Below, piece after piece: positions 2,943 through 49,209 of a DNA stretch of 64,000 nt. The notes beneath the pieces are model-generated. The model saw nothing but the letters and a program-made list of their open reading frames with translations. It did no database searches and was not told the origin of the DNA. Source of the stretch: Patescibacteria group bacterium (lineage in GTDB: Bacteria; Patescibacteriota; Microgenomatia; UBA10105; UBA927); NCBI GenBank assembly GCA_035510735.1, contig DATKGN010000013.1, positions 192,596 to 256,595 of the forward strand, written 5' to 3'. Numbering within the stretch: position 1 is the first letter of the stretch; each line of letters opens with the position of its first letter. A program made the position numbers and the translations under genes.

Positions 2943-2944
2943 AC

Positions 2945-3625
2945 TTATTCTTCTTCCGATAGTCTATAACCACTAAATCCTTTGACGGTATGAATCAGAT
3001 GATTTTTTGGAAAAGGGTCGTCTATCTTCGCTCTCAGATGTCTAATGTAGACCTCTACCGAATTAGGGAGCACATCAGCGTCGTAATCCCACACATGGTG
3101 AATAATTTGTTCTTTCGTAAGAGTCTGATTTTTGTGGTGCATTAGATACTCAAGAAGAGAGTATTCTTTATTTGAAAGTCGAATTTTTTGACCTGCTCGT
3201 TTTACCTCATAATTCGTAGTATCGAGAGTTAGATCAGCAATTGTTAAGATTGTGCCAGCAGAGCTTTGAGGACGGCGGGTCAATGCTTTGATTCGTACCA
3301 ATAGTTCAGCAAAAGCGAATGGTTTTGTTAAATAGTCATCCGCTCCAGAATTGAATCCAAGTACTTTGTCTTCAATTTGACTTTTCGCAGTTAGCATCAA
3401 AATAGGGGTATGAATATTATTCTCTCGAAGCTTTTTGCAAATTTCAATACCATCCACTCCGGGCAACATGACGTCTAAAATGATGACATCATATTCCTCT
3501 GTAACTGCCATATCGTAGCCTTCGTTTCCGTTGTAAATTACATCGACAGCGTATGATTCGTGCTCCAAGCCTTGTTTAACCGCGTTGGCAATTTTATGTT
3601 CATCCTCTATAACCAGAATTCTCAT
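2945..3625 (-). CDS. OmpR/PhoB-family response regulator
   Basis: MRILVIEDE...DVMLPGVDG receiver domain followed by a winged-helix trans_reg_C domain. It is separated by 2 bp from the kinase gene. Confidence 0.9.
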   Translation of the reverse strand: MRILVIEDEHKIANAVKQGLEHESYAVDVIYNGNEGYDMAVTEEYDVIILDVMLPGVDGIEICKKLRENNIHTPILMLTAKSQIEDKVLGFNSGADDYLTKPFAFAELLVRIKALTRRPQSSAGTILTIADLTLDTTNYEVKRAGQKIRLSNKEYSLLEYLMHHKNQTLTKEQIIHHVWDYDADVLPNSVEVYIRHLRAKIDDPFPKNHLIHTVKGFSGYRLSEEE

Positions 3626-3644
3626 ATTATCTATTATATAAATT

Positions 3645-3670
3645 TCGCTTAAAAGTAGCTTAAATTAAGC
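3645..3670 (-). promoter_or_regulatory. third copy of the CGCTTAAAAG-N-CTTAAATT box, in the promoter of the response regulator gene
   Basis: ttcgcttaaaagtagcttaaattaagc, 20-45 nt upstream of the regulator start. Confidence 0.35.
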
Positions 3671-3804
3671 TAGGCAAACATACTACGCTCATGAGACACT
3701 TCCTTTTATACTGTCTCATTTGTCTCATTTAGCCTCGGGGTGATACACTATAGGAGTTAAGTTATAACGATCGTAAGGACCGTGACCGGTACGCTCAAGC
3801 CAAT

Positions 3805-4260
3805 ATGGATACTCAAATTAAAAAAACGACTGACACTGTAGCTGCATTAAATATTGCCAAGAAAAACCCCCACTACTTTAATCCCTATGGTCTAAAAGCA
3901 ATGGAGAAAGATTTCAAAACAGGATTTCTAATAGGCGCCTACCATGAAAATATAATGGTAGGATTTGTCGCATTCAAGGAATTAAATGATCAAACTGTCG
4001 AACTTAAGTGGCTGGCAATAGAACCAAAATATCAAAATCAGGGCACAGGAACGCTTCTTGTAAACGAGGGCGTTACATTACTTCCAAAGAAATATGCTAT
4101 ATGCGAGATGAAAACATTGTCAGAAATTGATCCTGACCTGCAATATGCTAGAACGAGAAAATTTTATAAAAAGCTAGAATTTATACCACTCGAAACAATA
4201 AGCCCATATCCTGATTGGGGAAAAGATAATCCTTGTCAAATATTTGTGAAGGTTTTATAG
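3805..4260 (+). CDS. GNAT family N-acetyltransferase
   Basis: 151 aa with the acetyl-CoA binding motif WLAIEPKYQNQGTGTLLV. Confidence 0.7.
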   Translation: MDTQIKKTTDTVAALNIAKKNPHYFNPYGLKAMEKDFKTGFLIGAYHENIMVGFVAFKELNDQTVELKWLAIEPKYQNQGTGTLLVNEGVTLLPKKYAICEMKTLSEIDPDLQYARTRKFYKKLEFIPLETISPYPDWGKDNPCQIFVKVL

Positions 4261-17937: not shown

Positions 17938-18027
17938 ATCCATTTCGAAAAGTAGAAAACGGTAAGTTTGGGTGTATAATGGCTCTGAAAAGGGCATAAA
18001 GAAAAAATAACAATACATAAAAATATT

Positions 18028-18546
18028 ATGCAAAGCATTAATCAGACGCAAGCTGCTATTGCTAAATATCAAGTTGCAATAAATAAAAATATCTCTGAAA
18101 GTGAAATTCTTTGGAACCGATACAACGCTCTATTAGTTTTTAATTCAATACTCATAACGGCGATAGGATTTTCATATCAGGGGAACTTAAACCTACCATT
18201 ACTTGTGGTTGCCAGCTTGCCAATCGCGGGGCTTCTGTCGTGCTATTTGTGGTTTATCGTCACACTTCGCGGTTTTCAGTGGATAAAATTCTGGACAGTT
18301 ACAGCTAGAAAGATCGAAGAAAAATATCTACCTGATGATAATCCTATTTTAAATCCGATAAATAATGGCAAAAATCATAGGGAGGATGTTGTTGGGTGGC
18401 CTAAAACTCAAATAGCATCTTATATATTAATTTTGGTAACAGCTATTTTGTATCTTATTTTTTTAGCCAATCTACTGAATACAAAATCGTTTCACAAAAA
18501 TATTTTTCATTCACAACAACGAACAATGCACCGGTATATTAAATAG
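18028..18546 (+). CDS. hypothetical membrane protein (3 TM)
   Basis: 172-aa AT-rich ORF with hydrophobic helices. Confidence 0.4.
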   Translation: MQSINQTQAAIAKYQVAINKNISESEILWNRYNALLVFNSILITAIGFSYQGNLNLPLLVVASLPIAGLLSCYLWFIVTLRGFQWIKFWTVTARKIEEKYLPDDNPILNPINNGKNHREDVVGWPKTQIASYILILVTAILYLIFLANLLNTKSFHKNIFHSQQRTMHRYIK

Positions 18547-18584
18547 TGTTACTTTTTGTTAGACCCTCTAGGTAGGTTTCTACT

Positions 18585-18625
18585 TCACACCCTTCGTAAT
18601 CGCTCCTCCGTGGGATCAAAGTACA
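18585..18625 (-). repeat. decayed copy A of ABC-exporter 3' terminus (most degenerate)
   Basis: Minus-sense ...cccacggaggagcgattacgaagggtgtgaagtag aligns, with indels, to the real terminus ...ccgcggacacgctatcgttgaggaagcagagtaa. Confidence 0.45.
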
Positions 18626-18722
18626 AGAGAAATTAAAGCTTTAGCTTGTCGCGAATGGTATAATTGCGCTGAAGTAATAATTGAACTGCGACTCTATATC
18701 GGTCTCTAATTTACTATATTAC

Positions 18723-19604
18723 ATGAAAAAGGCACAGGTTTTTATAAGCTGTGGACAAAAAGATGATAGCGAAAAAGTCTTTGGAGAATATTTAGAAAAA
18801 TACTTCGTGGCTCGTGGTTTTGACACATATTTCGCTGAAGAAGTTCATAGCTCCAAGCCCCTATTACTGAGCATATTCGACGCTCTTAAAGAAAGTGAAT
18901 ATTTTGTTAGCGTTAACCCTCATAGAAAAGAAACGGGCGATACAGGTTCAATATTCGTTCAGCAAGAAATTGCGGTCGCTTCTTCATTAAGAATGCCTAT
19001 TATTGCATTTCATCAAAAGGGAGTACGAAGAACAAATGGTATGTCTGGGGGCCTCCATCTTAATAGCATTGAGGTTAATGAACCGAGAGAAATGAAGCAT
19101 CTGTTGGGCAAGGTCACTGCTTTGTGGGATAACACATCTAGAAATCAGCTTTTCCTGAAGATAGCTAATCCAAGTCTAAATATTCTAAATCAAAACAGTC
19201 AACTTACAAATTGGTGGCATATCTCTTGTCGGAATGGATCAAGTCTTAAACACGCAAAAGGATGTATGGCTTATATAGATAAAATTTTTGGTGCAAATAG
19301 AAAAAATATAATAACTATACCTTATAAATGTGAAATAGTGTGGGCTGGAGTAGGAATACATAGCATAACAATTGCTAAAAAAACTGAGAGGGATTTTGAC
19401 GCCATATTTACATTCAACGGATCAGGCGTATGGCACCCACAAATATTACAAACATCAACTATATACAAATATCCTTCATTAACAGATGGCATATATAATA
19501 TTGAATATTTAGTTGTAAGTGATAATTTTCCCGACGCGAGATTATTAGTTAAATTGAAGCTTCAAAAAGATATTATGACAGTCATAAAACAAAGACAATT
19601 ATAG
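18723..19604 (+). CDS. TIR-like (TIR_2/DUF1863-type) domain protein with unknown C-terminal domain
   Basis: N-terminus VFISCGQKDDSEKVFGEYLEKYF...EYFVSVNPHRKETGDTGSIFVQQEIAVASSLRMPIIAF follows the TIR_2 pattern (vFISY..D ... S.W...E). The roughly 170-aa C-terminal half is beta-rich and unassigned. Confidence 0.5.
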   Translation: MKKAQVFISCGQKDDSEKVFGEYLEKYFVARGFDTYFAEEVHSSKPLLLSIFDALKESEYFVSVNPHRKETGDTGSIFVQQEIAVASSLRMPIIAFHQKGVRRTNGMSGGLHLNSIEVNEPREMKHLLGKVTALWDNTSRNQLFLKIANPSLNILNQNSQLTNWWHISCRNGSSLKHAKGCMAYIDKIFGANRKNIITIPYKCEIVWAGVGIHSITIAKKTERDFDAIFTFNGSGVWHPQILQTSTIYKYPSLTDGIYNIEYLVVSDNFPDARLLVKLKLQKDIMTVIKQRQL

Positions 19605-19619
19605 TCGAATGATATAACT

Positions 19620-20456
19620 ATGAAGAGAAAACTTATCGACGTTCCTATTCAGTATGAGAGCATTATAAAAACTGCCTTTATTACAAGAACAAAATCTATA
19701 AATGACTTTAAGGAACGTGATTTTAAACGTTTAATTAAAGCTGTGCGGGATAGTGGCATTAAGAATAGATATGTCCTATCAGATATTGATAAGGATAATT
19801 ATCTAGTTCCTGACACTGATTTAACCGTGACTGTCATTAAAGATAAAAACCCTACAAGCGCAATTTCGCTAAATAAGGCTCTTCAGAGGATAAGAGAAGA
19901 TGATGTTAATCCGAAAGCATTTTTGATTTCCTCGCAAGAGGTGATCTTAACGGATGATCATATTAATAGACTCATTAAAGTGTTAAACGACGACCCTACT
20001 CTTCTTGTAGCTGGGTATAAATTTACCATTAAGGATGAAGAATTAAATAGTGAGTTGCAGTGGTATTATGCAAGGAAAAAATTGATAGCGTTTAAGGTGC
20101 CCTGGAATACCTGCGCCCTCTGGAATTACAAGTTATTCGATAAGTACGTGGAAGAGTTTGATGAAATCACGACTAAAAACCCTTTTAACCCAGTGTGTGT
20201 TTGTATTGATAACGTCTGCAGTCAAACAGAACACGTGGGAATGGAGGATGGGCTTGCTATTGCAAAGGCATTGACTCAAAATGAACGTCTAAAATACAAG
20301 TTAATAAGTGCGGACCCACCACTCTGTTGGAAAGTCAATGTTGATAGAATAAATGAACATAGGAAAAAACTTGCCAGAAAAGATACAGTAATGCGAGATT
20401 TTATGGAGGTTAAAAAATATTCTATCGATAAGTCACGAAATGCTAGGATGGAGTAG
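19620..20456 (+). CDS. hypothetical protein, possibly GT-A-fold glycosyltransferase-like
   Basis: C-terminal VPWNTCALWNYKLFDKYVEEFDE...GMEDGLAIAKAL resembles the GT2 acceptor/ED motif region; weak. Confidence 0.35.
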   Translation: MKRKLIDVPIQYESIIKTAFITRTKSINDFKERDFKRLIKAVRDSGIKNRYVLSDIDKDNYLVPDTDLTVTVIKDKNPTSAISLNKALQRIREDDVNPKAFLISSQEVILTDDHINRLIKVLNDDPTLLVAGYKFTIKDEELNSELQWYYARKKLIAFKVPWNTCALWNYKLFDKYVEEFDEITTKNPFNPVCVCIDNVCSQTEHVGMEDGLAIAKALTQNERLKYKLISADPPLCWKVNVDRINEHRKKLARKDTVMRDFMEVKKYSIDKSRNARME

Positions 20457-30656: not shown

Positions 30657-31291
30657 AAAAAGAATTCCCATTATTCAAAAATAAAAAACTCTTGAGAATC
30701 GTCGGCGGCGTCTTTGTGGTGGTCCTGCTTTTGGTAGCATGTATCATCTTTCAGAAAATGACCGGGAGAGTATTTATTGACAACTCACTTATTCAATCTC
30801 CGGTCATCACGATTTCCCCATCCTCATCCGGTAAAGTGCAGGAAATTGACGTTAAGGAGGGGGCTACCGTACAAAACGGTGATACGCTGGCAGTCGTCGG
30901 CTCTGAAACCCTTCGCGCCGACACGGACGGGCTCGTTATATCGGCCCCGGATCTGACCGGATCAACAGTGAATCCCACAACACAGCTCATCCAAATGATA
31001 CGGCCGGTTAATCTACGCGTTACGGGTACAATCGATGAGAATAAAGGATTAAAAGACATCCATGTCGGGCAGGTCGTTTCATTTACGGTCGATGCGTTAC
31101 CGGGTAACACATATTGGGGGTATGTCGATGAAATCTCGCCGAGTGCTGTGGCTCCTGCATTTTCTTTTTCGACGTCAACCGAACGGGCGACACAACAATT
31201 TACCGTGTATGCAAAATTTGACTCAGCTTTATACCCCGCTATAAAAAACGGCATGTCCGCAAAAATGGTTGTGTACACGAAGACAAAATAA
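30653..31291 (+). CDS. short HlyD-like adaptor protein
   Basis: N-terminal TM segment, GKVQEIDVKEGATVQNGDTLAVV lipoyl-like motif. 212 aa with a 4-bp overlap upstream. Confidence 0.55.
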   Translation: MKKEFPLFKNKKLLRIVGGVFVVVLLLVACIIFQKMTGRVFIDNSLIQSPVITISPSSSGKVQEIDVKEGATVQNGDTLAVVGSETLRADTDGLVISAPDLTGSTVNPTTQLIQMIRPVNLRVTGTIDENKGLKDIHVGQVVSFTVDALPGNTYWGYVDEISPSAVAPAFSFSTSTERATQQFTVYAKFDSALYPAIKNGMSAKMVVYTKTK

Positions 31292-32238
31292 TGAGTGTCT
31301 CTCCCAAAAATCCTTCTGAAAACTCATTCAAAAAAATAGCCGGCTTCATTGTCCTTATTCTTGTTGGTATCTTTATCGGACGGATATTTTTGAGTCAGGC
31401 AAAACAAATACAGGCCTCCCTCGCGCTCGTGAGCTGGGTGAATATCCTGTTGAGCGTCATCATGTTTCTCTTCTATTTTTACGCGAGGGCGCTTTCATGG
31501 AACCTAATACTCAAATCCCTGGGAAGCCATTTTAAAATTAAAGATAGTTTATTTGCATGGTTTGCCGGAGAATCAACGAGATATGTACCCGGAAACGTCT
31601 GGTCCTTCGCGAGTAGATTTTTTTTATCCGTAACCCACGGGGTGCCCAAGACTAACGTCATTCTTTCGATACTGTTGGAAATCATTCTCATGCTGCCGGT
31701 AACGTTATTGTTATCAGTTCCGGCTCTTTGGATAAATTATGGAAAAGTGCATTTCAGCGTACTCACCGTTCTTGTCGTTATTGGTGTTCTCGCTCTGGCG
31801 ACCGGTATACTATTTTTCAGCAAGCGGGCGAAACAAGCGCTCAAAGAGCTACGGCACGTCCCACGAAAAATCTTTTTTACGAATACCTTCCTCGGCGCTT
31901 TACTTCTGCAGATCCTGGCGTGGAGCGCATTCGGATTGGGAAATTACTTTCTGATACAGCCGTTTGCACAGCACGTGTCCGCGGGCTTAGTTGTCTCGAT
32001 TTCCATACTCGCATGGTTTTTAGGGTATATAAGTATCGTGACTCCCATGGGTTTAGGAGTAAGAGAGGGTGCGCTTATTTTGCTTCTCGGGTCGGGCATC
32101 GGCCAGGGCCAGGCCGGGCTCGCTGCAGTTTTATCCCGGGTCGTACTTACATCGACTGAGGGCATAAACCTGCTTTATTGGTTGTATATATATCAAGGTA
32201 AAAAGAACAAAACGTTATTATCTCCGCACGTCAAGTAA
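31291..32238 (+). CDS. flippase-like / LPG-synthase-TM-like (UPF0104) integral membrane protein
   Basis: 315 aa, about 8 TM segments, ESTRYVPGNVWSFASRFF motif region typical of this family (from memory). Confidence 0.5.
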   Translation: MSVSPKNPSENSFKKIAGFIVLILVGIFIGRIFLSQAKQIQASLALVSWVNILLSVIMFLFYFYARALSWNLILKSLGSHFKIKDSLFAWFAGESTRYVPGNVWSFASRFFLSVTHGVPKTNVILSILLEIILMLPVTLLLSVPALWINYGKVHFSVLTVLVVIGVLALATGILFFSKRAKQALKELRHVPRKIFFTNTFLGALLLQILAWSAFGLGNYFLIQPFAQHVSAGLVVSISILAWFLGYISIVTPMGLGVREGALILLLGSGIGQGQAGLAAVLSRVVLTSTEGINLLYWLYIYQGKKNKTLLSPHVK

Positions 32239-40241: not shown

Positions 40242-41675
40242 TTATTTGGTTGTTAGTCGTTTTAGCGTTTCGTCTTTTCCCAGTATTTCCAATGATTCAA
40301 GAAGCGGCGGACCGACAGTTTTACCCGTAACCGCAACCCGAAGCTCCATAAATACATCCTTTGCCTTAACATTCCCCTTCTCTGCGGCCTCCCTAATGGA
40401 TTTCTCCATCGCATCATGATTCCAATCACAGTTATTTAAAGCATCTCTTCCAATTTTTAATGCGCTTTCCTGTAATGGCCGCTCTAATTCGCGGGGCCGC
40501 TCAAAGAAAAAGCCTGCAAGAGATTTAAACTCCGATAACAGTTTCATGCGGTCTTTAATTAGCGGTAATATATTTATAAGAAGTGCATCATCTAACTTCT
40601 CATCCGTATAGAAATTTTTAATCAGATCTTTTATCTCTGCGTCTGACTTCATCCGTAAATACTCCCCGTTCATCCAACGTAGTTTCTCCGTATCAAATAT
40701 TGGCGCTGTTGTCTGGACTGCTTCGAGCGTGAACTTTTGTGTCATCTCCAAAACCGTGAATATATCTTTCCCTCCGGGATAGGCCCATGCCATGGTGGCC
40801 AAATAATTTTTTATTGCCTCCGGTAAATATCCTTTTGTTTTGTAGTCGGAAACCCACACAGGATTTTTCCGTTTACTAAGCTTACTTTTATCGGGATTTC
40901 GAAGCAATGATGCATGGGCAAACTGCGGAAGTTCCCATCCGAAAAATTGATAGAGGAGTATGTGCTTCGGTGTCGACGAAATCCACTCTTCACCCCGTAT
41001 GATATGAGTAATTTTCATGATATGGTCGTCAACAACGACCCCAAGGTGATAGGTGGGAAATCCATCCGATTTCAGAAGTACCTGATCGTCAATCAGTTTA
41101 TTTTCAAATGAAATATCGCCCCGGATTATATCGTGAAAGGTCGATACTCCGTCATCGGGAACATTAAGACGGATGACATGCTTTTCCCCGCCTGCGGCCC
41201 GCTTTTTCGCTTCTTTTGGATCCAATTTTTTGCACAAACCGTCATACATGGGGGGCAAGTGCTTCGCCTCCTGATCTTGCCGCATCTCTGCCAACCGTTC
41301 GGGAGTGCAAAAACAGTAATATGCATGACCTTTTGCTATCAGCTCTTCTGCATATTTTTTATAAATATCCAATCGTTCTGACTGACGATATGGAGCATAC
41401 GGACCGCCATTATCCGGCCCTTCGTCATGAGGAATCCCCAACCAGCGGAGTGATTCGAGAATCCGCGCTTCAGACCCTTCAACAAACCTTGTTCGATCAG
41501 TATCCTCTATTCGGATGATGAATTGGCCGTTATTTTTCTTCGCAAAAACATAATTGATAAGCGCAGTATAGGCATTTCCGATATGAAGATCCTGACCTGT
41601 CGGCGAAGGAGCGATGCGTGTGCGGACAATTGACATAACAAGATTGATTCTACCATCTGAGCCACGTATACTCAA
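40242..41675 (-). CDS. gltX: glutamate--tRNA ligase
   Basis: HIGH motif TRIAPSPTGQDLHIGNAYTAL and KMSKS-like LSKRKNP. The true start may be MSIVRT at about 41636. Confidence 0.9.
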   Translation of the reverse strand: MSIRGSDGRINLVMSIVRTRIAPSPTGQDLHIGNAYTALINYVFAKKNNGQFIIRIEDTDRTRFVEGSEARILESLRWLGIPHDEGPDNGGPYAPYRQSERLDIYKKYAEELIAKGHAYYCFCTPERLAEMRQDQEAKHLPPMYDGLCKKLDPKEAKKRAAGGEKHVIRLNVPDDGVSTFHDIIRGDISFENKLIDDQVLLKSDGFPTYHLGVVVDDHIMKITHIIRGEEWISSTPKHILLYQFFGWELPQFAHASLLRNPDKSKLSKRKNPVWVSDYKTKGYLPEAIKNYLATMAWAYPGGKDIFTVLEMTQKFTLEAVQTTAPIFDTEKLRWMNGEYLRMKSDAEIKDLIKNFYTDEKLDDALLINILPLIKDRMKLLSEFKSLAGFFFERPRELERPLQESALKIGRDALNNCDWNHDAMEKSIREAAEKGNVKAKDVFMELRVAVTGKTVGPPLLESLEILGKDETLKRLTTK

Positions 41676-41745: not shown

Positions 41746-42810
41746 ATGCAAAATATGTCTTCCCTGACCGAGACAGCGTATTACACACGACGTGCAGTTA
41801 ATTGGACCATTTTGGGTGTTATCGCCTACTTTGTCCTTCGCATTCTCTGGAGCATAATCGTTATTATTTGGCTCATGATTTTCCCGCCCCAACAGGCTTT
41901 GCCTAATCATGCCTTCGGAAGACTTCCTGCTCTTCAATTTCCGACCCAGGCAACTCCATCCGCACAGATCAGCTATACACTACAAACGATTGAAGGATCG
42001 GTGCCAACTGCATCGTCATCTGCCACCGTCTATTTCATGCCTAAAAGTGCAGCTAACCTTCTTGCCCTGACCAACACTGAGGATTTTGCCACAAAAATGC
42101 AGTTTGACCCGACTCCGATCCAGGAAAGCAAAAACATCTACCGTTTTAACGACGCAGATTACCCGCTTCGAAGCCTACGATATGATATCGTTTCTTCTAA
42201 TTTCATCGTCCGGTATACATTTGAGCGCGATTTGTCCATCTTTACCGAAAAAAATCTACCAGACGACAACGGGGCAAAAACGGAAGCCACTACACTCCTT
42301 GAATCAAATGGTTTATATCCAAGCGACTTCAACGGCGGACCGATCACCGTATCTTATCTCAAACTAAGCGGCATTCAGTTAGCTCCGGGGCGAAGTCTAT
42401 CTGATAGCGATGCGTTACGGGTTGATTTTTTTAGAAACTTAATCGGCGACACCCCTGTAGTTGCACCAATTCCGGATGAAGGACCAATATCTATTATAAT
42501 ATCGGGATCATCAAACCCACGAAAACGCATTATACAGTTTGCCTATACCTATTGGCCGATTGATTATCAGACAACGGCGACATATCCTCTCATTACGAGC
42601 TCACAGGCTTGGAGTGAACTACAACAAGGTCAAGGATATATCGCACACTATCCGGATAATACTACCACAGCTGTAGTACGAAACGTCTATTTAGCTTACT
42701 ATGACACGTACGATCCACAAACATATCTGCAGCCGGTTTTCGTATTCTCGGGGGATAATAATTTTATTGCATACGTCCCGGCGGTGATGTCCGATTGGAT
42801 AGAACAATAA
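41746..42810 (+). CDS. membrane-anchored hypothetical protein (extracytoplasmic domain)
   Basis: 354 aa with one N-terminal TM segment (WTILGVIAYFVLRILWSIIVIIWLMIF). Confidence 0.45.
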   Translation: MQNMSSLTETAYYTRRAVNWTILGVIAYFVLRILWSIIVIIWLMIFPPQQALPNHAFGRLPALQFPTQATPSAQISYTLQTIEGSVPTASSSATVYFMPKSAANLLALTNTEDFATKMQFDPTPIQESKNIYRFNDADYPLRSLRYDIVSSNFIVRYTFERDLSIFTEKNLPDDNGAKTEATTLLESNGLYPSDFNGGPITVSYLKLSGIQLAPGRSLSDSDALRVDFFRNLIGDTPVVAPIPDEGPISIIISGSSNPRKRIIQFAYTYWPIDYQTTATYPLITSSQAWSELQQGQGYIAHYPDNTTTAVVRNVYLAYYDTYDPQTYLQPVFVFSGDNNFIAYVPAVMSDWIEQ

Positions 42811-43785
42811 TTACTGACTTTGACCGTAGGGCACCCACTGGTAATTTGCGAATATCCAGTTAATAAGCTTCTCTGTGTCACCGAACCGGTCCTGACTGTG
42901 TAAAACCACCGTAATCACTTTATGACCATTACGGTCAACGAGTGTCATCAAATTTTCTCCGGCTTCCTCGGTCCAACCGGTTTTTATACCCCCAACACCA
43001 GGGATTTTCCCCAACAGTTCGTTCACATTTTTCAGTGGATAAAAATACGTATGGGTAACGTCTGAGATGGTAATTTCAGGGATTGCAACCATTTTTGCGA
43101 TGGTTTTATTTTGGAGCGCTACACTTCCTAAATGTGCTAAATCGATGGGCGTCATTTTATGGTTAGGATCATCAAAACCTACAGGATTTGTGAATGTGCT
43201 GTGATCGAGATGTAACGCTTGCGCCTTCTTATTCATAGCGTCAACAAATGCCGGCTCTCCACCGGGATAATGGTCGGCAATCGCCCATGCAGCATCGTTA
43301 CCGGAATAAATAAGAGCGCCGTAGAGTAAATTTTCGACCGTCATTTGCTCCCCGGGAACAAGCCCCATCACCTGTCCGTCAACCGTCGCCGTTTTTATAG
43401 TTACAACATCATCGAGATTATATGAGTCCAGTGCAACAAGTGCGGTCAAAATTTTCGTTGTCGATGCGGGAGATAGCGAAACATCGGCATTTCGTTTATA
43501 CATAAACACTCCAGAATTTATATCCAAAACGACAACACCGGTAGCTGTCACTTCACTCCCTGGATATACACCCGTACTATTTGTCGGGTACGGTGCGGGG
43601 GTGGGCACATTAAGCGATACGGTAGGATTTGAGATCGGTTCTGCAAGTTTTCCGATGGTATAAATATTTTGCCCCGGGCTCAACAGAATAAATATTCCTA
43701 CAAAGATAAGGAAGAGTATTTTATCCCAGTTGGTTATAAACCAAGGGATTTTCTGTACAGATGCTCTTTTTTTCTTCTTAGCCAT
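42811..43785 (-). CDS. D-alanyl-D-alanine carboxypeptidase (serine-type, PBP5/6-like)
   Basis: SxxK SPASTTKI, SxN YSGNDAA, KTG KTGWT. N-terminal membrane anchor. Confidence 0.8.
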   Translation of the reverse strand: MAKKKKRASVQKIPWFITNWDKILFLIFVGIFILLSPGQNIYTIGKLAEPISNPTVSLNVPTPAPYPTNSTGVYPGSEVTATGVVVLDINSGVFMYKRNADVSLSPASTTKILTALVALDSYNLDDVVTIKTATVDGQVMGLVPGEQMTVENLLYGALIYSGNDAAWAIADHYPGGEPAFVDAMNKKAQALHLDHSTFTNPVGFDDPNHKMTPIDLAHLGSVALQNKTIAKMVAIPEITISDVTHTYFYPLKNVNELLGKIPGVGGIKTGWTEEAGENLMTLVDRNGHKVITVVLHSQDRFGDTEKLINWIFANYQWVPYGQSQ

Positions 43786-45693
43786 TTACGATGTCTTCGC
43801 GTACGCGCCTGTGATGGGTCTTGCTACCTTTTCGTAATCCTTTTCCGATAACGCGATTGATTTATTATGCAGTCCTGCATTGAATGCAACCCGCGTATTT
43901 GTGGCTAAACCGTTTTCCATATAAATCGGTATACCGAAAATATGCCCGAACGGCGGTACAGCCCCGATTGGAACCGATGTTACGGTAAGTACTTCATCCG
44001 GCGTCGCCATACGGAGGTCCCGTACGTCAAATAATTTTTTAAATACCTTCATGTCAACTTTTTGATCTCCCGCGATAACCACCATGACCGGTTTCCCATC
44101 GGCAAACATAACAAGCGCTTTGGCTCCCATGTGAGGATCAGTATTTCTGATTTTCGCCGCTTCCTCACTTGTGGTCACCGGCTCGTGTTCATAGGCTTCA
44201 TATTGAATCTTATTCGCTTCAAGCAAATCGACTATCTCTTTATAGACGGCGTCACCCCCCCTGGGACCCGTCTTCTTCAAAACCGTAATGCCGACTTCAT
44301 TTAATTGCTCTTCAGTTGCTTCACTCGGGGCATCCATAACGCTCGTTTGCCCGGAAGCGCTTGCCGGAAATGCCATAACTTCCCGAATACTGAGCTCTCC
44401 TAACACGGTAAATAAAAACCGGTCAACTCCGGGAGCAATCCCTCCATGCGGCGGTACTCCATAGGTGAAAGCAGTGAGCATATGCTCAAATTGGCTCTTT
44501 TGAGCCGCACTAAATCCGATGAGATCAAACACTTTCTCCTGTATTTCCCGCTTATGAATTCTTATGCTGCCCCCTCCGACCTCATAACCGTTCAGAATCA
44601 TATCATGTTGCAATCCACGGACTTTGGTCGGATCCGTATCAAGGAGCGCGATATCATCAGGATGTGGCGCGGTAAACATATGATGAGAAGGTGCAAATTT
44701 GGCGCTTCCCGACCCATGATAGAAATCCGCCTCCGACTGCTCGGTAAAAAGCGGAAAATCTACCGTCCAGGAAAAAGCTAGTTCGTTAGGATCATTTTTA
44801 TTTTTCCGTAAGTCCGGTTTGTCCGTCCCGTATTTCGCAATTGCCTCTTTGTGCGGAATTCTCGGCCAGGGAGTCTGTGATATATGTTTTTCGGGAAATA
44901 ATTTCGTCACTAATTTTGTAAACAGGTCTTCCGCAAGCCGGATAATATCTTCCTGCGTCACAAATGACATTTCAATATCAAGCTGGGTAAACTCACCGTA
45001 CGCACGGTCTTTTCTTGGGTCCTCATCGCGGAAACATCGGGCAATCTGAAAATACCGTTCCAAACCCGCTACCATCAATAACTGCTTATACTGTTGGGGC
45101 GATTGCGGGAGCGCATAAAATTTACCTTTTTGAAGCCTCGAGGGGACGATAAAATCCCGTGCTCCTTCCGGTGTCGTTTTCGTTAACATCGGTGTTTCCA
45201 CCTCTATAAAATCAAGAGCGGTTAGGTAATTTCTGATAAACGTGGTCGCCTGAGAGCGGACACGAAGATTCCGCGTCATTCTGGGACGTCTGATATCCAG
45301 GTAGCGGTATTTCAGCCTGGTTTCTTCGTTAATATCGAGTCCGTCCGTATCAATAGGGAACGGCAGTTCTCTTGCTTTATTGATAATGAGCATTTTTTTC
45401 ACTTCAATCTCAATTGCTCCTGTAGTCAGTTTCGCGTTCACCATGTTATCCGGCCGTTTTTTGACGACACCAACGACCTCTACCACATCCTCAGGCCGCG
45501 CATCGGCAAGTTCCTTAGAGGATACCATCTGGACGATCCCTGTGCGGTCACGAAGATCCAAAAACATGATTTTCCCGTGATCACGGCGGTTATTTATCCA
45601 ACCCTGAAGGAGGACTTCTTTTCTGATAAGATCAGTTGTTTTTATTATAAGAGTTCTCTCCATACCTGACTCCATCATAACAAATAACCTCAA
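43786..45693 (-). CDS. aspS: aspartate--tRNA ligase fused to C-terminal YbaK/ProX-type deacylase-like domain
   Basis: AspRS motifs FLDLRDRTG, QSPQQYKQLLMVAG, FRDED, GGGSIRIH, GIAPGVDRFL...REVMAFP, with no GAD insertion. After about residue 480 comes a roughly 150-aa domain matching the YbaK/tRNA_edit pattern (KALVMF...VMVVIAGDQKVDMKVFKKL...GAVPPFG). It is one uninterrupted ORF. Confidence 0.85.
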   Translation of the reverse strand: MRLFVMMESGMERTLIIKTTDLIRKEVLLQGWINNRRDHGKIMFLDLRDRTGIVQMVSSKELADARPEDVVEVVGVVKKRPDNMVNAKLTTGAIEIEVKKMLIINKARELPFPIDTDGLDINEETRLKYRYLDIRRPRMTRNLRVRSQATTFIRNYLTALDFIEVETPMLTKTTPEGARDFIVPSRLQKGKFYALPQSPQQYKQLLMVAGLERYFQIARCFRDEDPRKDRAYGEFTQLDIEMSFVTQEDIIRLAEDLFTKLVTKLFPEKHISQTPWPRIPHKEAIAKYGTDKPDLRKNKNDPNELAFSWTVDFPLFTEQSEADFYHGSGSAKFAPSHHMFTAPHPDDIALLDTDPTKVRGLQHDMILNGYEVGGGSIRIHKREIQEKVFDLIGFSAAQKSQFEHMLTAFTYGVPPHGGIAPGVDRFLFTVLGELSIREVMAFPASASGQTSVMDAPSEATEEQLNEVGITVLKKTGPRGGDAVYKEIVDLLEANKIQYEAYEHEPVTTSEEAAKIRNTDPHMGAKALVMFADGKPVMVVIAGDQKVDMKVFKKLFDVRDLRMATPDEVLTVTSVPIGAVPPFGHIFGIPIYMENGLATNTRVAFNAGLHNKSIALSEKDYEKVARPITGAYAKTS

Positions 45694-46179: not shown

Positions 46180-47832
46180 CTACACCACTTTTATATCTTT
46201 AATCTTTAACTGTAATCTCGTGCTTCCATTCCAGGTGTTCATATCGATGGAATAGGCAATATCGATGGGTTTATCAGGCCGGAGTGACGGATAGACCTTG
46301 CCTAAACCGAATGCTATCGCATCGACAATGACTCCCGCCTGTCTGAGTTTTAATTTCATATGTTTCCCTTCGGCGCCAACCAGCCGGCTATCGACGACCT
46401 CAACTCCTGTTGATGAGAATAACGGCTCGGGATTGCCGAAACCGAACGGCTCAAATTCCTGTATCGCCCGCCATAGATCCTCCGTGGCGTTTGATAAAGG
46501 CAAAGCGACATCAATGGGAAGAACACGTAGTAATTGTTCTTCGCCTAACTCTTTCTCTGCAAGTTCACTAAGACGCCGCTCCAATGCATCAAGATTTTTT
46601 GTTTCGACAGTAAATCCCGCAGCCATTGGATGGCCTCCTACGTCAACAAGAATGTCGCTGCAACTCCTGATCGCGTCAACAATATTGAATCCGGTAATCG
46701 ACCGCGCAGACGCTTTTGAATAGATTTCGCCGACTGACAAGACGATAGACGGGCGGTAATATTCCTCAACAAGTCTCCCTGCAACCAATCCGATAATCCC
46801 GGGATTGTAACTTTCGTGTGCGATAAACAATAACTTCTTTACATTCCCTGATGCATCTTTTTGCACCAATCCCTTTGCATGAGCCGACGTATCAACGGTC
46901 AGTTGCTGGCGTTCTTTATTTGTAAGACTCAGTTTTCGCGCTAATAGCATCGCCTTATCTTCCCGGTTTGTGCACATAAGTCGAAGTGCATCCATCGCGT
47001 GAACCAATCTCCCCATAGCATTAATCCTCGGGGCTATGACATGGGAAATATCAAATGTTGAAAGCTCGCCCTTCGTCAATCCTGCGTCGGATATGAGCGC
47101 AGTGAGCCCGATACGTTTTGTTTTATTGAGCACTGCCAATCCGAATTTTGTTATAGACCGATTCGCACCGATTAAAGGAACGAGATCTGCAATCGTCCCG
47201 ATGGTCGCAAGGGCTAATAATTCATCGTGATGCGCGGGATCCAGTTCTTTTGCCACGAACCATGAGACCCCTGCTCCGCAGAGACTCGTCGTGTGAACGG
47301 TTACGCAGTCGGGAAGTTTTTTGGGTTTCATGTGATGATCGGTGACGACAACATCAATTCCCAGAGACTTTGCGTACTCTACCTTGTCGTAAGCAGAAAT
47401 TCCGTGATCGACGGTGACGATGAGCGACGGCGTATATTGTTTAAAAACGCTGTCTATCCCCTTTTTCGACAAACCATATCCTTCCTCAGCCCTATCGGGA
47501 ATATACGGCATAACGTTTCCGCCGAGTTTATGAATCGTTTCCCACATGATGGCACCCGCTGTAATCCCGTCTGCATCATAGTCCGCATACACAATAATCG
47601 ACTCATGCAAGCGTATCGCCTTATTAATCCGTTTCACCGCTTTTGCAAGTGATGAGAAACTGATGTCAACGTCTTTTGCAGTTAAATCATACGGATTTTT
47701 CGGATGAAGATACTCTTCAATTTCTTTTTTTGTCTTTAATCCGCGGTTTAAGAGTAAAACCGAGATAATATCGCGGACGCTTAACGGTGACAACGTTGAT
47801 TTCGGTGTATAGCGTATCTGCCACTTCTTCAT
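46180..47832 (-). CDS. recJ: single-stranded-DNA-specific exonuclease RecJ
   Basis: DHH motifs YADYDADGITAGAI, VDHGISA, DVVVTDHH, followed by a DHHA1 domain. Confidence 0.9.
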   Translation of the reverse strand: MKKWQIRYTPKSTLSPLSVRDIISVLLLNRGLKTKKEIEEYLHPKNPYDLTAKDVDISFSSLAKAVKRINKAIRLHESIIVYADYDADGITAGAIMWETIHKLGGNVMPYIPDRAEEGYGLSKKGIDSVFKQYTPSLIVTVDHGISAYDKVEYAKSLGIDVVVTDHHMKPKKLPDCVTVHTTSLCGAGVSWFVAKELDPAHHDELLALATIGTIADLVPLIGANRSITKFGLAVLNKTKRIGLTALISDAGLTKGELSTFDISHVIAPRINAMGRLVHAMDALRLMCTNREDKAMLLARKLSLTNKERQQLTVDTSAHAKGLVQKDASGNVKKLLFIAHESYNPGIIGLVAGRLVEEYYRPSIVLSVGEIYSKASARSITGFNIVDAIRSCSDILVDVGGHPMAAGFTVETKNLDALERRLSELAEKELGEEQLLRVLPIDVALPLSNATEDLWRAIQEFEPFGFGNPEPLFSSTGVEVVDSRLVGAEGKHMKLKLRQAGVIVDAIAFGLGKVYPSLRPDKPIDIAYSIDMNTWNGSTRLQLKIKDIKVV

Positions 47833-47859
47833 GAGTCATATGATATCATAGGGGCAGCT

Positions 47860-49209
47860 ATGATAAAGCTCCCAAAACAAGCACAATCCATCATTGATGA
47901 GGTGAAAAAAAACGGTTTTGATGCTTATGCAATCGGCGGGTCCGTCCGCGATTTACTCATGGACCGGCCGACGAAAGGTTGGGATTTTACGACAAATGCA
48001 ACTCCCGAAGATCTCTTGCGCATTTTCCCGGACAGTTTTTATGATAATCAGTTCGGTACGGTAGGGATTAAGATGCGGGATACCGATGAAACAGTAACGG
48101 ACGTTTACGAAATCACGACATATCGTAGCGAAGAAGGATATAAAGACCACCGCCATCCTGACAAGATTAGCTGGGGCAAAACATTGGCAGGTGACTTGGG
48201 CCGGCGCGATTTTACGATCAATGCAATTGCCTGTGACGGACAAAAAATAGTGGACCCGTATGACGGTCAAAAAGATTTAAAGGATAAAATAATCCGTACG
48301 GTCGGGAACCCGGACGATCGCTTCAAAGAGGACGCTCTCCGTATGATGCGCGCTATCCGTCAGGCGAGCGAGCTCGGATTCATGATTGACCCGATGACCC
48401 TTGCAGCGATCAAAAAAAACGCAGTTCTCCTCAAGGAAATATCAATTGAACGCATCCGCGATGAGTTATTGAAACTGCTTGCATCTTCGTATGCAGCAGA
48501 CGGAATTCTGCTCCTTAAAAGTAGCGGACTTCTCACATTCATCATCCCCGAACTTATCCCTGCATTTGACGTGCAGCAAAAAAGCCCGAAGCGCCATCAC
48601 ATTTACGACGTGGGCACTCATTGTGTCATGGCCATGAAATACTGCCCGTCAAAAGACCCGATCATTCGACTGGCGACACTCCTTCATGACATCGGCAAGG
48701 TACATACATTTAAGAAAGATGATACCGGATTAATCACCTTTTATAACCATGAGGTTGTGGGTGCAAGAATCGCGAGAAGTATTTGTTACCGCCTAAAACT
48801 CTCTAAAAAACAAATAGATAAAGTCGTAACACTTATTCGATGGCATCAGTTCAGCGTAGACGAACGACAGACAGACAGCGCCATACGAAGAATCATTCGC
48901 CATGTCGAAAAAGAAAATCTCGATGACATGCTCGCCCTCCGGATCGGAGACCGGCTCGGCGGCGGAGCGCAAGAAACTTCATGGCGCCTGGAACTTTTTA
49001 AAAAACGCCTTATCGACGTCCAAAAACAGCCCTTCAGCGTCACTGATCTTAAAATTAATGGTTTTGATGTCATGAAAACACTCGGCGTTAAACCCGGTCC
49101 TGTTATCGGGAAACTCTTAAACCAGCTGTTTGCCGAAGTGGAAGCCGGGACGCTCCAAAATGAACGGGAAGCATTACTGTCTCGTCTTAAACAACTCATT
49201 TTCAATTAA
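47860..49209 (+). CDS. cca: CCA tRNA nucleotidyltransferase (PolyA_pol head + HD domain)
   Basis: AYAIGGSVRDLLMDRPTKGWDFTT, RRDFTINAIA, HD motif LLHDIGK. Confidence 0.85.
   Translation: MIKLPKQAQSIIDEVKKNGFDAYAIGGSVRDLLMDRPTKGWDFTTNATPEDLLRIFPDSFYDNQFGTVGIKMRDTDETVTDVYEITTYRSEEGYKDHRHPDKISWGKTLAGDLGRRDFTINAIACDGQKIVDPYDGQKDLKDKIIRTVGNPDDRFKEDALRMMRAIRQASELGFMIDPMTLAAIKKNAVLLKEISIERIRDELLKLLASSYAADGILLLKSSGLLTFIIPELIPAFDVQQKSPKRHHIYDVGTHCVMAMKYCPSKDPIIRLATLLHDIGKVHTFKKDDTGLITFYNHEVVGARIARSICYRLKLSKKQIDKVVTLIRWHQFSVDERQTDSAIRRIIRHVEKENLDDMLALRIGDRLGGGAQETSWRLELFKKRLIDVQKQPFSVTDLKINGFDVMKTLGVKPGPVIGKLLNQLFAEVEAGTLQNEREALLSRLKQLIFN

What the first reader, a model, noticed from the sequence alone, without database searches (positions are those of the whole stretch)
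43786..45693. Aspartyl-tRNA synthetase fused to a YbaK/ProX-type trans-editing domain
A single 635-aa ORF contains a complete class-II AspRS without the bacterial GAD insertion; motifs 1-3, QSPQQYKQLLM and GGGSIRIH are all present. A linker then leads into a roughly 150-aa C-terminal domain with the YbaK/ProX deacylase signature (KALVMFADGKPVMVVIAGDQKVDMKVFKKL...VPPFG).

YbaK-like editing domains are normally free-standing or inserted in ProRS. An AspRS fusion suggests a dedicated proofreading or deacylation activity coupled to Asp-tRNA (Asp/Asn) synthesis in this lineage.
Basis: partly seen in the sequence, partly recalled or inferred. Interest (0 to 1): 0.55.

Follow-up and report, generated by a model that had tools for sequence, protein, structure and literature searches.

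The report
AspRS fused to YeaK-like deacylase
In this candidate-phyla (Microgenomates) bacterium the enzyme that loads aspartate onto tRNA is made as one protein with a tRNA-proofreading (deacylase) domain on its tail; the fusion is real and lineage-wide and I found no published description of it, but what the proofreader removes is still unknown.

Summary
Window 43786-45693 (-) is one uninterrupted ORF encoding a bacterial-type, GAD-less AspRS plus a full-length PF04073 editing domain.

It is not a frameshift artefact:
- 78 of 80 species-representative Patescibacteria genomes carry the same fusion.
- Their linkers vary in length (8-18 aa) and sequence.
- The G7 run at the junction is absent from a 92%-identical relative that still reads through.
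- Synonymous changes far outnumber non-synonymous ones in both halves.

The interpretation needs correcting in two ways. First, the domain is not YbaK or ProX proper. Its closest relatives are E. coli YeaK (ProXp-ST1, a Ser/Thr-tRNA deacylase) and the uncharacterised Legionella protein 3OP6. Second, the fusion joined neighbouring genes of a conserved aspS-edit-DD-carboxypeptidase cluster. In relatives the same domain is free-standing (before or after aspS), fused to the carboxypeptidase instead, or lost.

It therefore behaves as an autonomous deacylase module on a flexible tether. A built-in AspRS proofreader is not demonstrated. The catalytic Lys and GXXXP loop are invariant, so activity is likely, but the substrate is unknown.

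I found no report of the fusion; databases call these proteins plain "aspartate--tRNA ligase". I rate it a new variant of a known kind, of moderate interest.

The parts
43786..45693 (-). Maximal ORF (635 aa from TTG) encoding the AspRS::editing-domain fusion. The probable real start is ATG 45663 (625 aa) or ATG 45675/45678. The stop TAA is at 43786-43788.
   Evidence: P0272 (629 aa) is identical to the window protein.
45388..45615 (-). OB-fold anticodon-binding domain of AspRS (ORF residues 27-102).
   Evidence: Pfam PF01336, 2.5e-13.
44362..45330 (-). Class II catalytic core (ORF residues 122-444) with motifs 1-3, QSPQQYKQ and GGGSIRIH.
   Evidence: Pfam PF00152, 1.1e-109. NCBIfam bacterial aspS 597 bits against cutoff 443. 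Best structural matches are bacterial-type AspRS such as 4O2D, 6HHV, 5W25 and 4WJ4.
44782..44805 (-). Scar of the missing GAD insertion: 'KNKNDPNE' replaces the ~130-aa GAD domain of E. coli AspRS.
   Evidence: Alignment with E. coli AspS and with GAD-containing relatives. No PF02938 hit.
44269..44361 (-). Bacterial-type C-terminal extension of AspRS (...SEATEEQLNEVGITVLKK), which corresponds to the natural end of unfused AspRS.
   Evidence: It aligns to the E. coli AspS C-terminus. Unfused relatives P0116 and P0120 end here.
44255..44261 (-). G7 homopolymer inside the variable linker (TGPRGG). This was the potential frameshift site and it is not conserved.
   Evidence: Linker length is 8-18 residues across 67 fusions.
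43789..44256 (-). YeaK/3OP6-like INS-superfamily aminoacyl-tRNA editing (deacylase) domain, ~155 aa.
   Evidence: Pfam PF04073, 2.6e-30, full length. AF2 domain model: pLDDT 93.3, pTM 0.87. The top 37 PDB fold matches all have the INS fold.
44119..44121 (-). Codon of the strictly conserved lysine (GAK motif; K525 in ORF numbering, K515 in the 625-aa numbering, K50 of the domain). This is the presumed catalytic residue.
   Evidence: Invariant in 67 fusions and in 32 diverse domains plus E. coli YeaK. PMC11286415 describes it as an INS-superfamily hallmark.
43951..43965 (-). GXXXP loop (G-A-V-P-P of IGAVPPFG).
   Evidence: G and the second P are invariant across the fusions. G102, P105 and P106 are invariant across fusions, free-standing relatives and YeaK. 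The hallmark is described in PMC11286415.
42811..43785 (-). Downstream membrane-anchored Peptidase_S11 (D-Ala-D-Ala carboxypeptidase). Its ATG abuts the TAA of the fusion gene. It is the third member of the conserved aspS-edit-dac cluster.
   Evidence: Pfam PF00768, 2e-51. It lies directly downstream in ~77 of 80 genomes. In some relatives it is fused to the editing domain.

Best explanation
The gene encodes a bifunctional protein. It is a bacterial-type AspRS that has lost its GAD insertion, and it carries at its natural C-terminus a catalytically competent aminoacyl-tRNA deacylase of the YeaK (ProXp-ST1)/3OP6 branch of the INS superfamily, joined by a short, variable and flexible linker.

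The fusion arose by joining two adjacent genes of a conserved aspS-edit-dac cluster of Microgenomates.

The deacylase most likely works as a self-contained post-transfer editing module. Its conserved Lys/GXXXP pocket would hydrolyse the ester bond of some wrongly acylated tRNA. By analogy with YeaK, the wrong residue would be a small polar one such as Ser or Thr.

Fusion to the dimeric synthetase would give 1:1 expression and place the module next to a tRNA-binding platform. It would not make the module an obligate, channelled proofreader of AspRS.

Shown: the architecture, its conservation, purifying selection, the fold, intact catalytic motifs, and the origin from neighbouring genes. Inferred: hydrolytic activity, the substrate class, and action from the tether.
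For: The fusion is real and conserved:
- More than 115 homolog clusters share the architecture.
- 78 of 80 species-representative genomes have the two parts in one ORF.
- The G7 run is not conserved.
- Codon differences against L011 are 169 synonymous / 10 non-synonymous in AspRS and 63 / 12 in the editing domain, while the linker is free to vary at 4 / 7.

The family placement is supported:
- E. coli YeaK: 73 bits, end to end.
- hhalign gives 134 for YeaK against 55 for YbaK.
- 3OP6 is the top match by both sequence and fold.

The catalytic Lys and the GXXXP loop are invariant.

The module behaves autonomously:
- Of the 150 best family representatives, 127 are free-standing proteins of ~155 aa.
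- It is unfused after aspS in L007 and before aspS in L093.
- It is fused to Peptidase_S11, with a membrane-spanning segment in between, in L003/L004 and L096.
- It is lost in L001.

The tether looks flexible. The linker is 8-18 aa and unconserved. In the AF2 full-length model, pLDDT is 87-93 for the domain but ~57 or lower across residues 436-467, and pTM is 0.66.

YeaK family activity (Ser/Thr-tRNA deacylation with broad tRNA range) is taken from PMC11295145.
Against: - No biochemical data exist for this clade. At 28% identity to YeaK, substrate specificity cannot be transferred.
- The edit-aspS adjacency survives a change of gene order (L007 against L093) and a divergent arrangement (L003). 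That is classic evidence for a specific functional link with AspRS, beyond co-expression.
- The fused state is retained in 78 of 80 species-level lineages, which suggests the fusion itself is selected.
- I could not check whether these genomes hold other editing factors, so a 'general scavenger' role is untested.
- The monomer AF2 model cannot exclude docking in the dimer or in the tRNA complex.
Confidence: 0.55

Rival explanations
1. Dedicated AspRS proofreading. The appended domain would be a true cis-editing site. The 3' end of tRNA-Asp or tRNA-Asn mischarged by the attached core with a non-cognate amino acid would swing into the Lys/GXXXP pocket and be hydrolysed, as happens in ProRS, ThrRS and AlaRS.
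For: - The fusion is retained in 78 of 80 species-level genomes across Microgenomates, including a GAD-containing AspRS (L088, P0152).
- The editing gene stays next to aspS even when the order is permuted (L007, L093) or the genes are divergent (L003).
- The catalytic residues are invariant.
- LysRS, from the same class IIb, is among the synthetases whose Ser/Thr errors the YeaK family clears (PMC11295145).
Against: - No amino-acid mis-selection problem is known for AspRS. [quoted passage not shown]
- The same domain functions free-standing, or membrane-tethered to a carboxypeptidase with no aspS found in the locus (L096).
- It is dispensable in an 85%-identical AspRS (L001).
- The linker is unconserved and the docking is not confidently predicted.
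Confidence: 0.2
2. Policing of an AspRS-specific product that is not an amino-acid error. The domain would hydrolyse Asp-tRNA-Asn that escapes amidation by GatCAB, making a non-discriminating AspRS safe. Alternatively it would hydrolyse D-Asp-tRNA-Asp.
For: - UniProt's automatic name for two fusion homologs is 'Aspartate--tRNA(Asp/Asn) ligase'.
- Asp-tRNA-Asn is the only misacylated species that bacterial AspRSs are documented to make (PMC6523644).
- There is a precedent for a synthetase hydrolysing excess pathway intermediate: H. pylori GluRS2 and Glu-tRNA-Gln (PMC3241645 abstract).
- An AspRS::GatC fusion family exists in NCBIfam (NF009460), so the AspRS C-terminus is a known attachment point for Asn-pathway partners.
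- The tight link to a D-Ala-D-Ala carboxypeptidase hints loosely at D-amino acids.
- From my own knowledge, untested here: AspRS is one of the synthetases reported to charge a D-amino acid.
Against: - Nothing here shows that the AspRS is non-discriminating. No asnS, gatCAB or dtd genes were seen in the 30 window ORFs I scanned, and no tRNA-Asn gene occurred in any locus.
- Nothing distinguishes tRNA-Asp from tRNA-Asn for such a small domain.
- The characterised relatives act on small neutral residues, not on Asp.
- The carboxypeptidase domain is extracytoplasmic.
Confidence: 0.12
3. A non-catalytic role. The YbaK-fold domain would serve as an extra tRNA-binding or protein-adaptor module, for example compensating for the lost GAD domain, and would not be a hydrolase.
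For: - The YbaK-like fold has been co-opted for a non-editing adaptor role in P. aeruginosa SadB (9QZK; PMC12075610 abstract).
- Nearly all fusions are GAD-less.
Against: - The catalytic Lys and the GXXXP loop are invariant across fusions, free-standing relatives and YeaK.
- Fusions also occur in AspRSs that still have GAD (P0152, L088).
- An AspRS without GAD and without the domain exists (L001).
Confidence: 0.08
4. Assembly or annotation artefact. There would really be two genes (aspS and a separate YbaK-like gene), merged by a length error in the G7 homopolymer.
For: - A G7 run sits exactly at the junction.
- One NCBI record (HUD20364.1) annotates only the last 130 residues, identical to the window, as a separate 'YbaK/EbsC family protein'.
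- The genes are genuinely separate in a few relatives (L007, L071, L093).
Against: - An identical 629-aa protein was recovered on 4 contigs from independent sources.
- 78 of 80 genomes have the fusion with different junction sequences and lengths.
- L011 lacks the homopolymer and still reads through.
- There is no usable start codon for a full-length separate domain.
- A 130-aa product starting at the internal GTG would lack the first helix and first strand of the fold.
Confidence: 0.02

Closest known systems
ProXp-ST1 / E. coli YeaK (Ser- and Thr-tRNA trans-editing deacylase, INS superfamily)
   Same: It is the best characterised relative of the C-terminal domain. The alignment is end to end (28% identity, 73 bits; hhalign probability 99.5, E = 3e-22). 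H, GAK, GxxPP and NAG motifs are shared, and so are the size and fold.
   Different: YeaK is a free-standing single-domain protein of Proteobacteria. Here the domain is covalently joined to AspRS. At 28% identity, orthology and Ser/Thr specificity are unproven. By sequence the window domain is as close to the uncharacterised 3OP6 as it is to YeaK.
Legionella pneumophila lpg1207 (PDB 3OP6), uncharacterised YbaK-fold protein
   Same: It is the top hit by sequence (E = 5.8e-21) and by fold E-value (3e-13; 28-31% identity), with the same VGAMPPFG and FNAG motifs.
   Different: It is free-standing and no function has been reported. I could not establish which named INS family (ProXp-ST2, -7, -8 or -9) it belongs to.
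ProRS INS cis-editing domain, and ProXp-ala::ProRS N-terminal fusions of lower eukaryotes
   Same: An INS-superfamily deacylase lies in the same polypeptide as a class II synthetase. It has the same fold (TM ~0.72 to 2J3L) and the same Lys/GXXXP chemistry.
   Different: The synthetase partner differs (AspRS, class IIb, with no known editing need). The domain is appended to the C-terminus, not inserted between motifs 2 and 3 or placed at the N-terminus. It belongs to a different INS subfamily.
AspRS::GatC bifunctional protein (NCBIfam NF009460/PRK12820) and fungal ErdS (AspRS::DUF2156, PMC13219428)
   Same: These are precedents for AspRS carrying an extra domain that acts on its aminoacyl-tRNA product.
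   Different: Their partner domains consume or convert Asp-tRNA (amidation, transfer to a sterol). The partner here has a hydrolase fold. The window protein scores 394 bits against the 1379-bit cutoff of NF009460, so it is not a member of that family.
YbaK (Cys-tRNA-Pro deacylase)
   Same: Same superfamily and fold (TM ~0.80 to 1DBU), with the conserved Lys.
   Different: It fails both curated YbaK models (57.7 against 153 bits; 20.9 against 243 bits). hhalign gives 55 for YbaK against 134 for YeaK. The motif is GAVPPFG where YbaK has GGISPLG.

Membership tests
Bacterial-type aspartyl-tRNA synthetase (class IIb) | N-terminal OB-fold anticodon-binding domain plus a class II catalytic core with motifs 1-3; passes the curated equivalog model | tested here: met
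   PF01336 and PF00152. NF001750 scores 597 bits against cutoff 443, and TIGR00459 scores 533 against 374. The best fold matches are bacterial AspRS at 33-42% identity.
Bacterial-type aspartyl-tRNA synthetase (class IIb) | GAD insertion domain between motifs 2 and 3 (used in PMC4206432 to tell bacterial-type from archaeal-type AspRS) | tested here: not met
   There is no PF02938 hit. The ~130-aa insertion is replaced by KNKNDPNE. The rest of the sequence, including the C-terminal extension, is still bacterial-type. The archaeal/ND model PRK05159 scores only 228 bits against a cutoff of 353.
INS superfamily / Pfam tRNA_edit (PF04073) | Passes the Pfam gathering threshold over the full profile | tested here: met
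   105.5 bits against 25.5, covering profile positions 1-122 of 123.
INS superfamily / Pfam tRNA_edit (PF04073) | Strictly conserved lysine and GXXXP loop (PMC11286415) | tested here: met
   K50 and G102-A-V-P-P106 (domain numbering) are invariant in 32 diverse domains plus YeaK and in 67 fusions.
INS superfamily / Pfam tRNA_edit (PF04073) | YbaK/ProX alpha-beta fold | tested here: met
   AF2 domain model: pLDDT 93.3, pTM 0.87. The top 37 PDB matches are all INS-fold proteins with TM 0.64-0.90.
INS superfamily / Pfam tRNA_edit (PF04073) | Hydrolysis of an aminoacyl-tRNA ester bond | not testable with these tools
   This needs a deacylation assay. Only motif conservation and purifying selection (63 synonymous against 12 non-synonymous codon differences) speak for activity.
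YbaK (Cys-tRNA-Pro deacylase) | Passes the curated equivalog models TIGR00011 / NF007951 | tested here: not met
   57.7 bits against 153.25, and 20.9 bits against 243.
[quoted passage not shown] | Close sequence relationship to characterised members (C. crescentus 5VXB, A. tumefaciens 1VKI) | tested here: not met
   Only E = 0.025 and E = 0.012 in the PDB sequence search, against 5.8e-21 for 3OP6.
ProXp-ST1 (YeaK family) | Orthology or close homology to E. coli YeaK | tested here: inconclusive
   It is the closest characterised relative, but identity is only 28%. No curated model is available. The NJ tree of the clade is star-like.
ProXp-ST1 (YeaK family) | Ser-/Thr-tRNA deacylase activity with broad tRNA range | not testable with these tools
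   This is a biochemical property (PMC11295145).
Cis-editing aminoacyl-tRNA synthetase | The editing site is positioned so that the CCA end of the tRNA bound to the same enzyme can shuttle from the synthetic site to the editing site | tested here: inconclusive
   The monomer AF2 model has pTM 0.66 and a low-confidence tether at residues 436-467. Coordinates and dimer/tRNA complexes were not available.

The most novel reading that the evidence does not exclude
This could be the first editing activity belonging to an aspartyl-tRNA synthetase. It would proofread the tRNA or the stereochemistry instead of the amino-acid side chain. The tethered YeaK-like domain would hydrolyse Asp-tRNA-Asn that is not handed to GatCAB, or D-Asp-tRNA-Asp. 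A GAD-less, probably non-discriminating AspRS in a reduced genome could then operate safely. The recurrent link to a D-Ala-D-Ala carboxypeptidase would reflect a shared D-amino-acid or cell-wall context.
Probability: 0.12. Interest if true: 0.8.

Novelty: new variant of a known kind. Interest (0 to 1): 0.55.

Why it matters
AspRS is one of the synthetases for which no editing function is known. The INS/YbaK superfamily is described as free-standing except when attached to ProRS.

A fusion conserved across a whole class of candidate-phyla bacteria gives a natural 'Rosetta stone' for an uncharacterised branch of that superfamily, the 3OP6/YeaK-like clade. The exhaustive search returned thousands of hits to this domain, and most of the best 150 are free-standing. 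The fusion points to concrete substrates to test: tRNA-Asp and tRNA-Asn species.

It also bears on how organisms with minimal genomes keep translation accurate.

If the domain turns out to be a general scavenger that happens to be fused, the finding is a tidy example of neighbour-gene fusion in streamlined genomes. If it acts on AspRS products, it is a new quality-control step.

A practical point: public annotation currently hides the domain under the name 'aspartate--tRNA ligase'.

Tried and rejected
1. Frameshift artefact at the G7 run. Rejected.

2. YbaK or ProXp-ala identity. Rejected on curated cutoffs and on relative scores.

3. Resolving fusion and fission history with an NJ tree of 165 domains. 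The tree is star-like. The fused domains appear in at least 5 places, but the branching is not trustworthy.

4. Genome scan with a diverse 33-sequence alignment. It was redone with 11 closer sequences, so the survey is biased towards the fused clade.

5. Testing for the indirect Asn pathway.
   - No tRNA genes occur in the window.
   - No tRNA-Asn gene occurs in the 92 loci scanned.
   - No AsnRS, GatCAB, DTD or ProRS appeared among the 30 window ORFs scanned, out of roughly 60.
   - The literature query found nothing on Patescibacteria.
   - Discriminating versus non-discriminating status therefore stays open. My recollection that H. pylori ND-AspRS specificity depends on two Leu residues in the anticodon-binding domain could not be checked, because PMC2654173 is not held. 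I did not use it.

6. Primary papers defining ProXp-ST1/ST2/x/7-9 (PMC4434731, PMC3656294, PMC6103672) are not held. The named family of 3OP6 could not be established.

7. The contig behind HUD20364.1 could not be retrieved.

8. The idea that AspRS mischarges Glu. The paper found shows the opposite: only correct Glu-tRNA-Glu was made.
Full report
**Observation.** The window carries a single open reading frame on the minus strand from 45693 to 43786 (635 aa from a TTG).

The TTG is only the mechanical start. Three ATGs follow within 30 bases. The third (45663, MERTL...) has a GGAG six bases upstream and matches where homologs begin. Public gene calls for the identical protein start at the second ATG (P0272, 629 aa).

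Pfam finds three domains:
- an OB-fold anticodon-binding domain (residues 27-102);
- a class II D/K/N catalytic core (122-444, E = 1e-109);
- a full-length tRNA_edit domain (503-622, profile positions 1-122 of 123, E = 2.6e-30, 105 bits against a cutoff of 25.5).

There is no GAD hit. NCBIfam's bacterial aspS equivalog is passed (597 bits against 443) in two stretches that skip the GAD insertion.

**Is the fusion real?** A run of seven G (44255-44261) lies exactly in the junction, so a frameshift artefact had to be excluded. Five lines of evidence exclude it.

1. The top 120 hits of a homolog search include more than 115 distinct clusters (at 90% identity) that are 62-95% identical and carry all three Pfam domains at ~620-630 aa.
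2. In an alignment of these, the linker between the AspRS tail (...ELGI...) and the first helix of the editing domain differs in sequence and ranges from 8 to 18 residues. All remain in frame.
3. A scan of one genome per species found 80 genomes with the domain. In 78 of them AspRS and the domain share one stop-free frame.
4. The nearest relative (L011, 92% identical in the domain) has AATCCTAAAGGTGGCGAT in place of the G-run and still reads through.
5. Against L011, codon differences are 169 synonymous to 10 non-synonymous in AspRS and 63 to 12 in the editing domain, but 4 to 7 in the 12-codon linker. Both halves are therefore translated in this frame and are under purifying selection.

An identical protein is recorded on four contigs from two independent sources.

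**What the two halves are.** The synthetase half is bacterial-type.
- Its best structural matches are M. smegmatis, T. thermophilus (AspRS1), M. tuberculosis and P. aeruginosa AspRS at 33-42% identity, well ahead of the archaeal and eukaryotic types.
- It keeps the bacterial C-terminal extension.
- The ~130-residue GAD insertion is cleanly replaced by 'KNKNDPNE'.
- The editing domain begins where E. coli AspRS ends.

The editing half folds with high confidence on its own (pLDDT 93, pTM 0.87). Its top 37 PDB matches are all INS/YbaK-fold proteins (TM 0.64-0.90).

It is not YbaK. The curated YbaK models are failed by a wide margin (57.7 against 153 bits; 20.9 against 243). It is not ProXp-ala either (E = 0.025 to 5VXB).

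Its closest relatives are two:
- the uncharacterised Legionella protein lpg1207 (3OP6; E = 5.8e-21 by sequence, best fold E-value);
- E. coli YeaK, the ProXp-ST1 Ser/Thr-tRNA deacylase, with an end-to-end alignment at 28% identity and 73 bits, and hhalign 134 (E = 3e-22) against 55 (E = 1e-8) for E. coli YbaK.

The INS hallmarks are a strictly conserved lysine and a GXXXP loop (PMC11286415). Both are invariant across 67 fusions, and across 32 diverse domains plus YeaK.

**Where the fusion came from.** An exhaustive search with the domain alone found 3,574 representatives (867 at E <= 1e-10). Of the best 150:
- 127 are free-standing proteins of ~155 aa;
- 13 are AspRS fusions or fragments of them, three of which still contain a GAD domain (full-length P0152 and fragments P0132 and P0215);
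- two are fusions of the same domain to the N-terminus of a Peptidase_S11 D-Ala-D-Ala carboxypeptidase;
- three are tandem arrays.

Peptidase_S11 is exactly the gene that abuts the fusion's stop codon in the window (42811-43785). It lies directly downstream in about 77 of the 80 genomes.

Gene neighbourhoods in relatives show every intermediate state:
- aspS (with GAD), a separate editing gene, then dac (L007);
- a separate editing gene, aspS, then dac (L093);
- aspS divergently transcribed next to an edit::dac fusion, seen in two samples (L003/L004);
- an edit::dac fusion with no aspS found in the locus (L096);
- aspS followed directly by dac with no editing domain, in an AspRS 85% identical to the window's (L001/L002).

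The edit::dac proteins have a basic stretch and a hydrophobic membrane-spanning segment between the two domains. That places the deacylase in the cytoplasm and the carboxypeptidase outside. The window protein is therefore the product of fusing two neighbouring genes of a conserved aspS-edit-dac cluster.

The named carriers are essentially all Microgenomates: Gottesman-, Woese-, Roizman-, Shapiro-, Ames- and Chisholmbacteria. A few records are labelled Saccharimonadales, Paceibacterota or Gemmatimonadota.

**How it most likely works.**

Shown:
- a complete AspRS and a complete deacylase-fold domain with intact motifs, in one polypeptide;
- both conserved under purifying selection;
- an unconserved linker of 8-18 residues joining them.

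The full-length AF2 model gives confident modules but low confidence across residues 436-467, and an overall pTM of 0.66. There is no confidently fixed docking.

Inferred: the domain hydrolyses some mis-acylated tRNA using the Lys/GXXXP pocket. The best guess at substrate class comes from YeaK, which acts on Ser/Thr on several tRNAs (PMC11295145).

The same module is found free, membrane-tethered, or absent. I therefore favour an autonomous editing module carried on the synthetase, gaining stoichiometric expression and proximity to a tRNA-binding dimer. I do not favour an obligate cis-editing site.

Two facts argue against a purely accidental partnership. The edit-aspS adjacency survives a permutation of gene order, and the fused state is retained in 78 of 80 species-level lineages.

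Its main weakness is that AspRS has no known amino-acid error to correct. [quoted passage not shown]

The only mis-acylated species AspRS is documented to make is the pathway intermediate Asp-tRNA-Asn. This motivates the more novel reading that the domain removes Asp-tRNA-Asn that escapes GatCAB, or D-Asp-tRNA. H. pylori GluRS2 hydrolysing excess Glu-tRNA-Gln is a precedent for that kind of control (PMC3241645 abstract). UniProt's rule-based name for two homologs is 'Aspartate--tRNA(Asp/Asn) ligase'. Nothing I could run tests this reading.

**Comparison with what is known.** Appended or inserted editing domains are well known in ProRS, ThrRS, AlaRS, PheRS and the class I Leu/Ile/Val enzymes. 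INS-superfamily domains are known inside ProRS, at the N-terminus of some eukaryotic ProRSs, and free-standing.

AspRS fusions are also known, but to partners that consume Asp-tRNA: GatC (NCBIfam NF009460) and DUF2156 in fungal ErdS (PMC13219428).

An AspRS carrying an INS-family deacylase is a new combination of known parts. Five literature searches aimed at prior reports found no description. The sequences themselves have been public for some time and are annotated as 'aspartate--tRNA ligase' or 'hypothetical protein'. I rate it a new variant of a known kind.

**Limits.**
- The genome scan used patterns from the fused clade, so the 78 of 80 figure describes that clade. It is not an unbiased census of Patescibacteria.
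- The NJ tree cannot count fusion events.
- The named INS family of 3OP6 could not be established, because the defining papers are not held.
- Whether the AspRS is discriminating, and whether these genomes have AsnRS, GatCAB, DTD or other editing factors, could not be determined.

**Verdict.** This is a real, conserved and apparently undescribed AspRS::YeaK-like deacylase fusion that arose from neighbouring genes. The substrate is unknown. Interest is 0.55.

Noticed in passing
L003:5001-6461, L004:1986-3446, L096:1286-2803 (proteins P0146, P0210): The same YeaK-like editing domain is fused to the N-terminus of a Peptidase_S11 D-Ala-D-Ala carboxypeptidase, with a basic stretch and a membrane-spanning helix between them. 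This makes a cytoplasmic tRNA deacylase tethered to an extracytoplasmic cell-wall enzyme. It occurs in independent samples. Why a translation-fidelity module should tolerate or prefer this partner is unexplained.
   Followed up: partly
window 44782-44805 (-): The AspRS is bacterial-type but lacks the GAD insertion, which is considered diagnostic of bacterial AspRS (PMC4206432). Only 1 of the 80 related genomes (L088) keeps GAD. Two other relatives (L005, L007) keep it as well. GAD loss and the fusion are therefore independent events.
   Followed up: partly
proteins P0123 (448 aa), P0139 (491 aa), P0192 (303 aa): These proteins consist of three (P0123, P0139) or two (P0192) tandem copies of the tRNA_edit domain and nothing else. 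The copies are diverged from one another.
   Followed up: no
window 43789-44181 (-); NCBI protein HUD20364.1 (P0271): One public record annotates only the last 130 residues, identical to the window, as a separate 'YbaK/EbsC family protein' starting at an internal GTG. That product would lack the first helix and first strand of the fold. The likely cause is a frameshift or an annotation choice in that assembly. The contig could not be retrieved.
   Followed up: partly
window 41746-42810 (+): A 354-aa ORF with no Pfam match lies convergent with the carboxypeptidase gene. Its N-terminal region includes a long hydrophobic stretch. A gene of ~350 aa occupies the same position and orientation in L001 and L007, so it is a fourth conserved member of the neighbourhood, of unknown function.
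   Followed up: no
L094:434-2069: A more distant free-standing homolog of the editing domain (P0145) sits directly upstream of a class Ib synthetase gene (PF00579, Trp/TyrRS-like, 334 aa). This suggests that the clade associates with synthetase genes other than aspS in other lineages.
   Followed up: no
loci L011, L013-L017 and many others (record titles): Dozens of MAGs that clearly belong to Patescibacteria, by gene content and by their nearest named relatives, carry the record title 'uncultured Gammaproteobacteria bacterium' or 'uncultured Pseudomonadales bacterium'. These look like placeholder taxonomy on third-party assemblies and could mislead taxonomic surveys.
   Followed up: no
window 18001-20000 and 2001-4000: GC content drops to 0.345 and 0.372, against ~0.45 elsewhere. 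The ORF at 18681-19604 has no Pfam match. This may be foreign or fast-evolving DNA.
   Followed up: no
window 31291-32238 (+): This ORF matches only the transmembrane region of lysyl-phosphatidylglycerol synthase (PF03706, MprF-like). No aminoacyl-tRNA transferase domain is detected in it.
   Followed up: no
window 46180-49209: RecJ (-) and a CCA-adding enzyme (+) lie just upstream of aspS. The same RecJ/CCA-enzyme/aspS neighbourhood recurs in distant relatives (L001, L003, L093). Together with GluRS at 40242-41675, this indicates strongly conserved synteny of tRNA-related genes in this lineage.
   Followed up: partly
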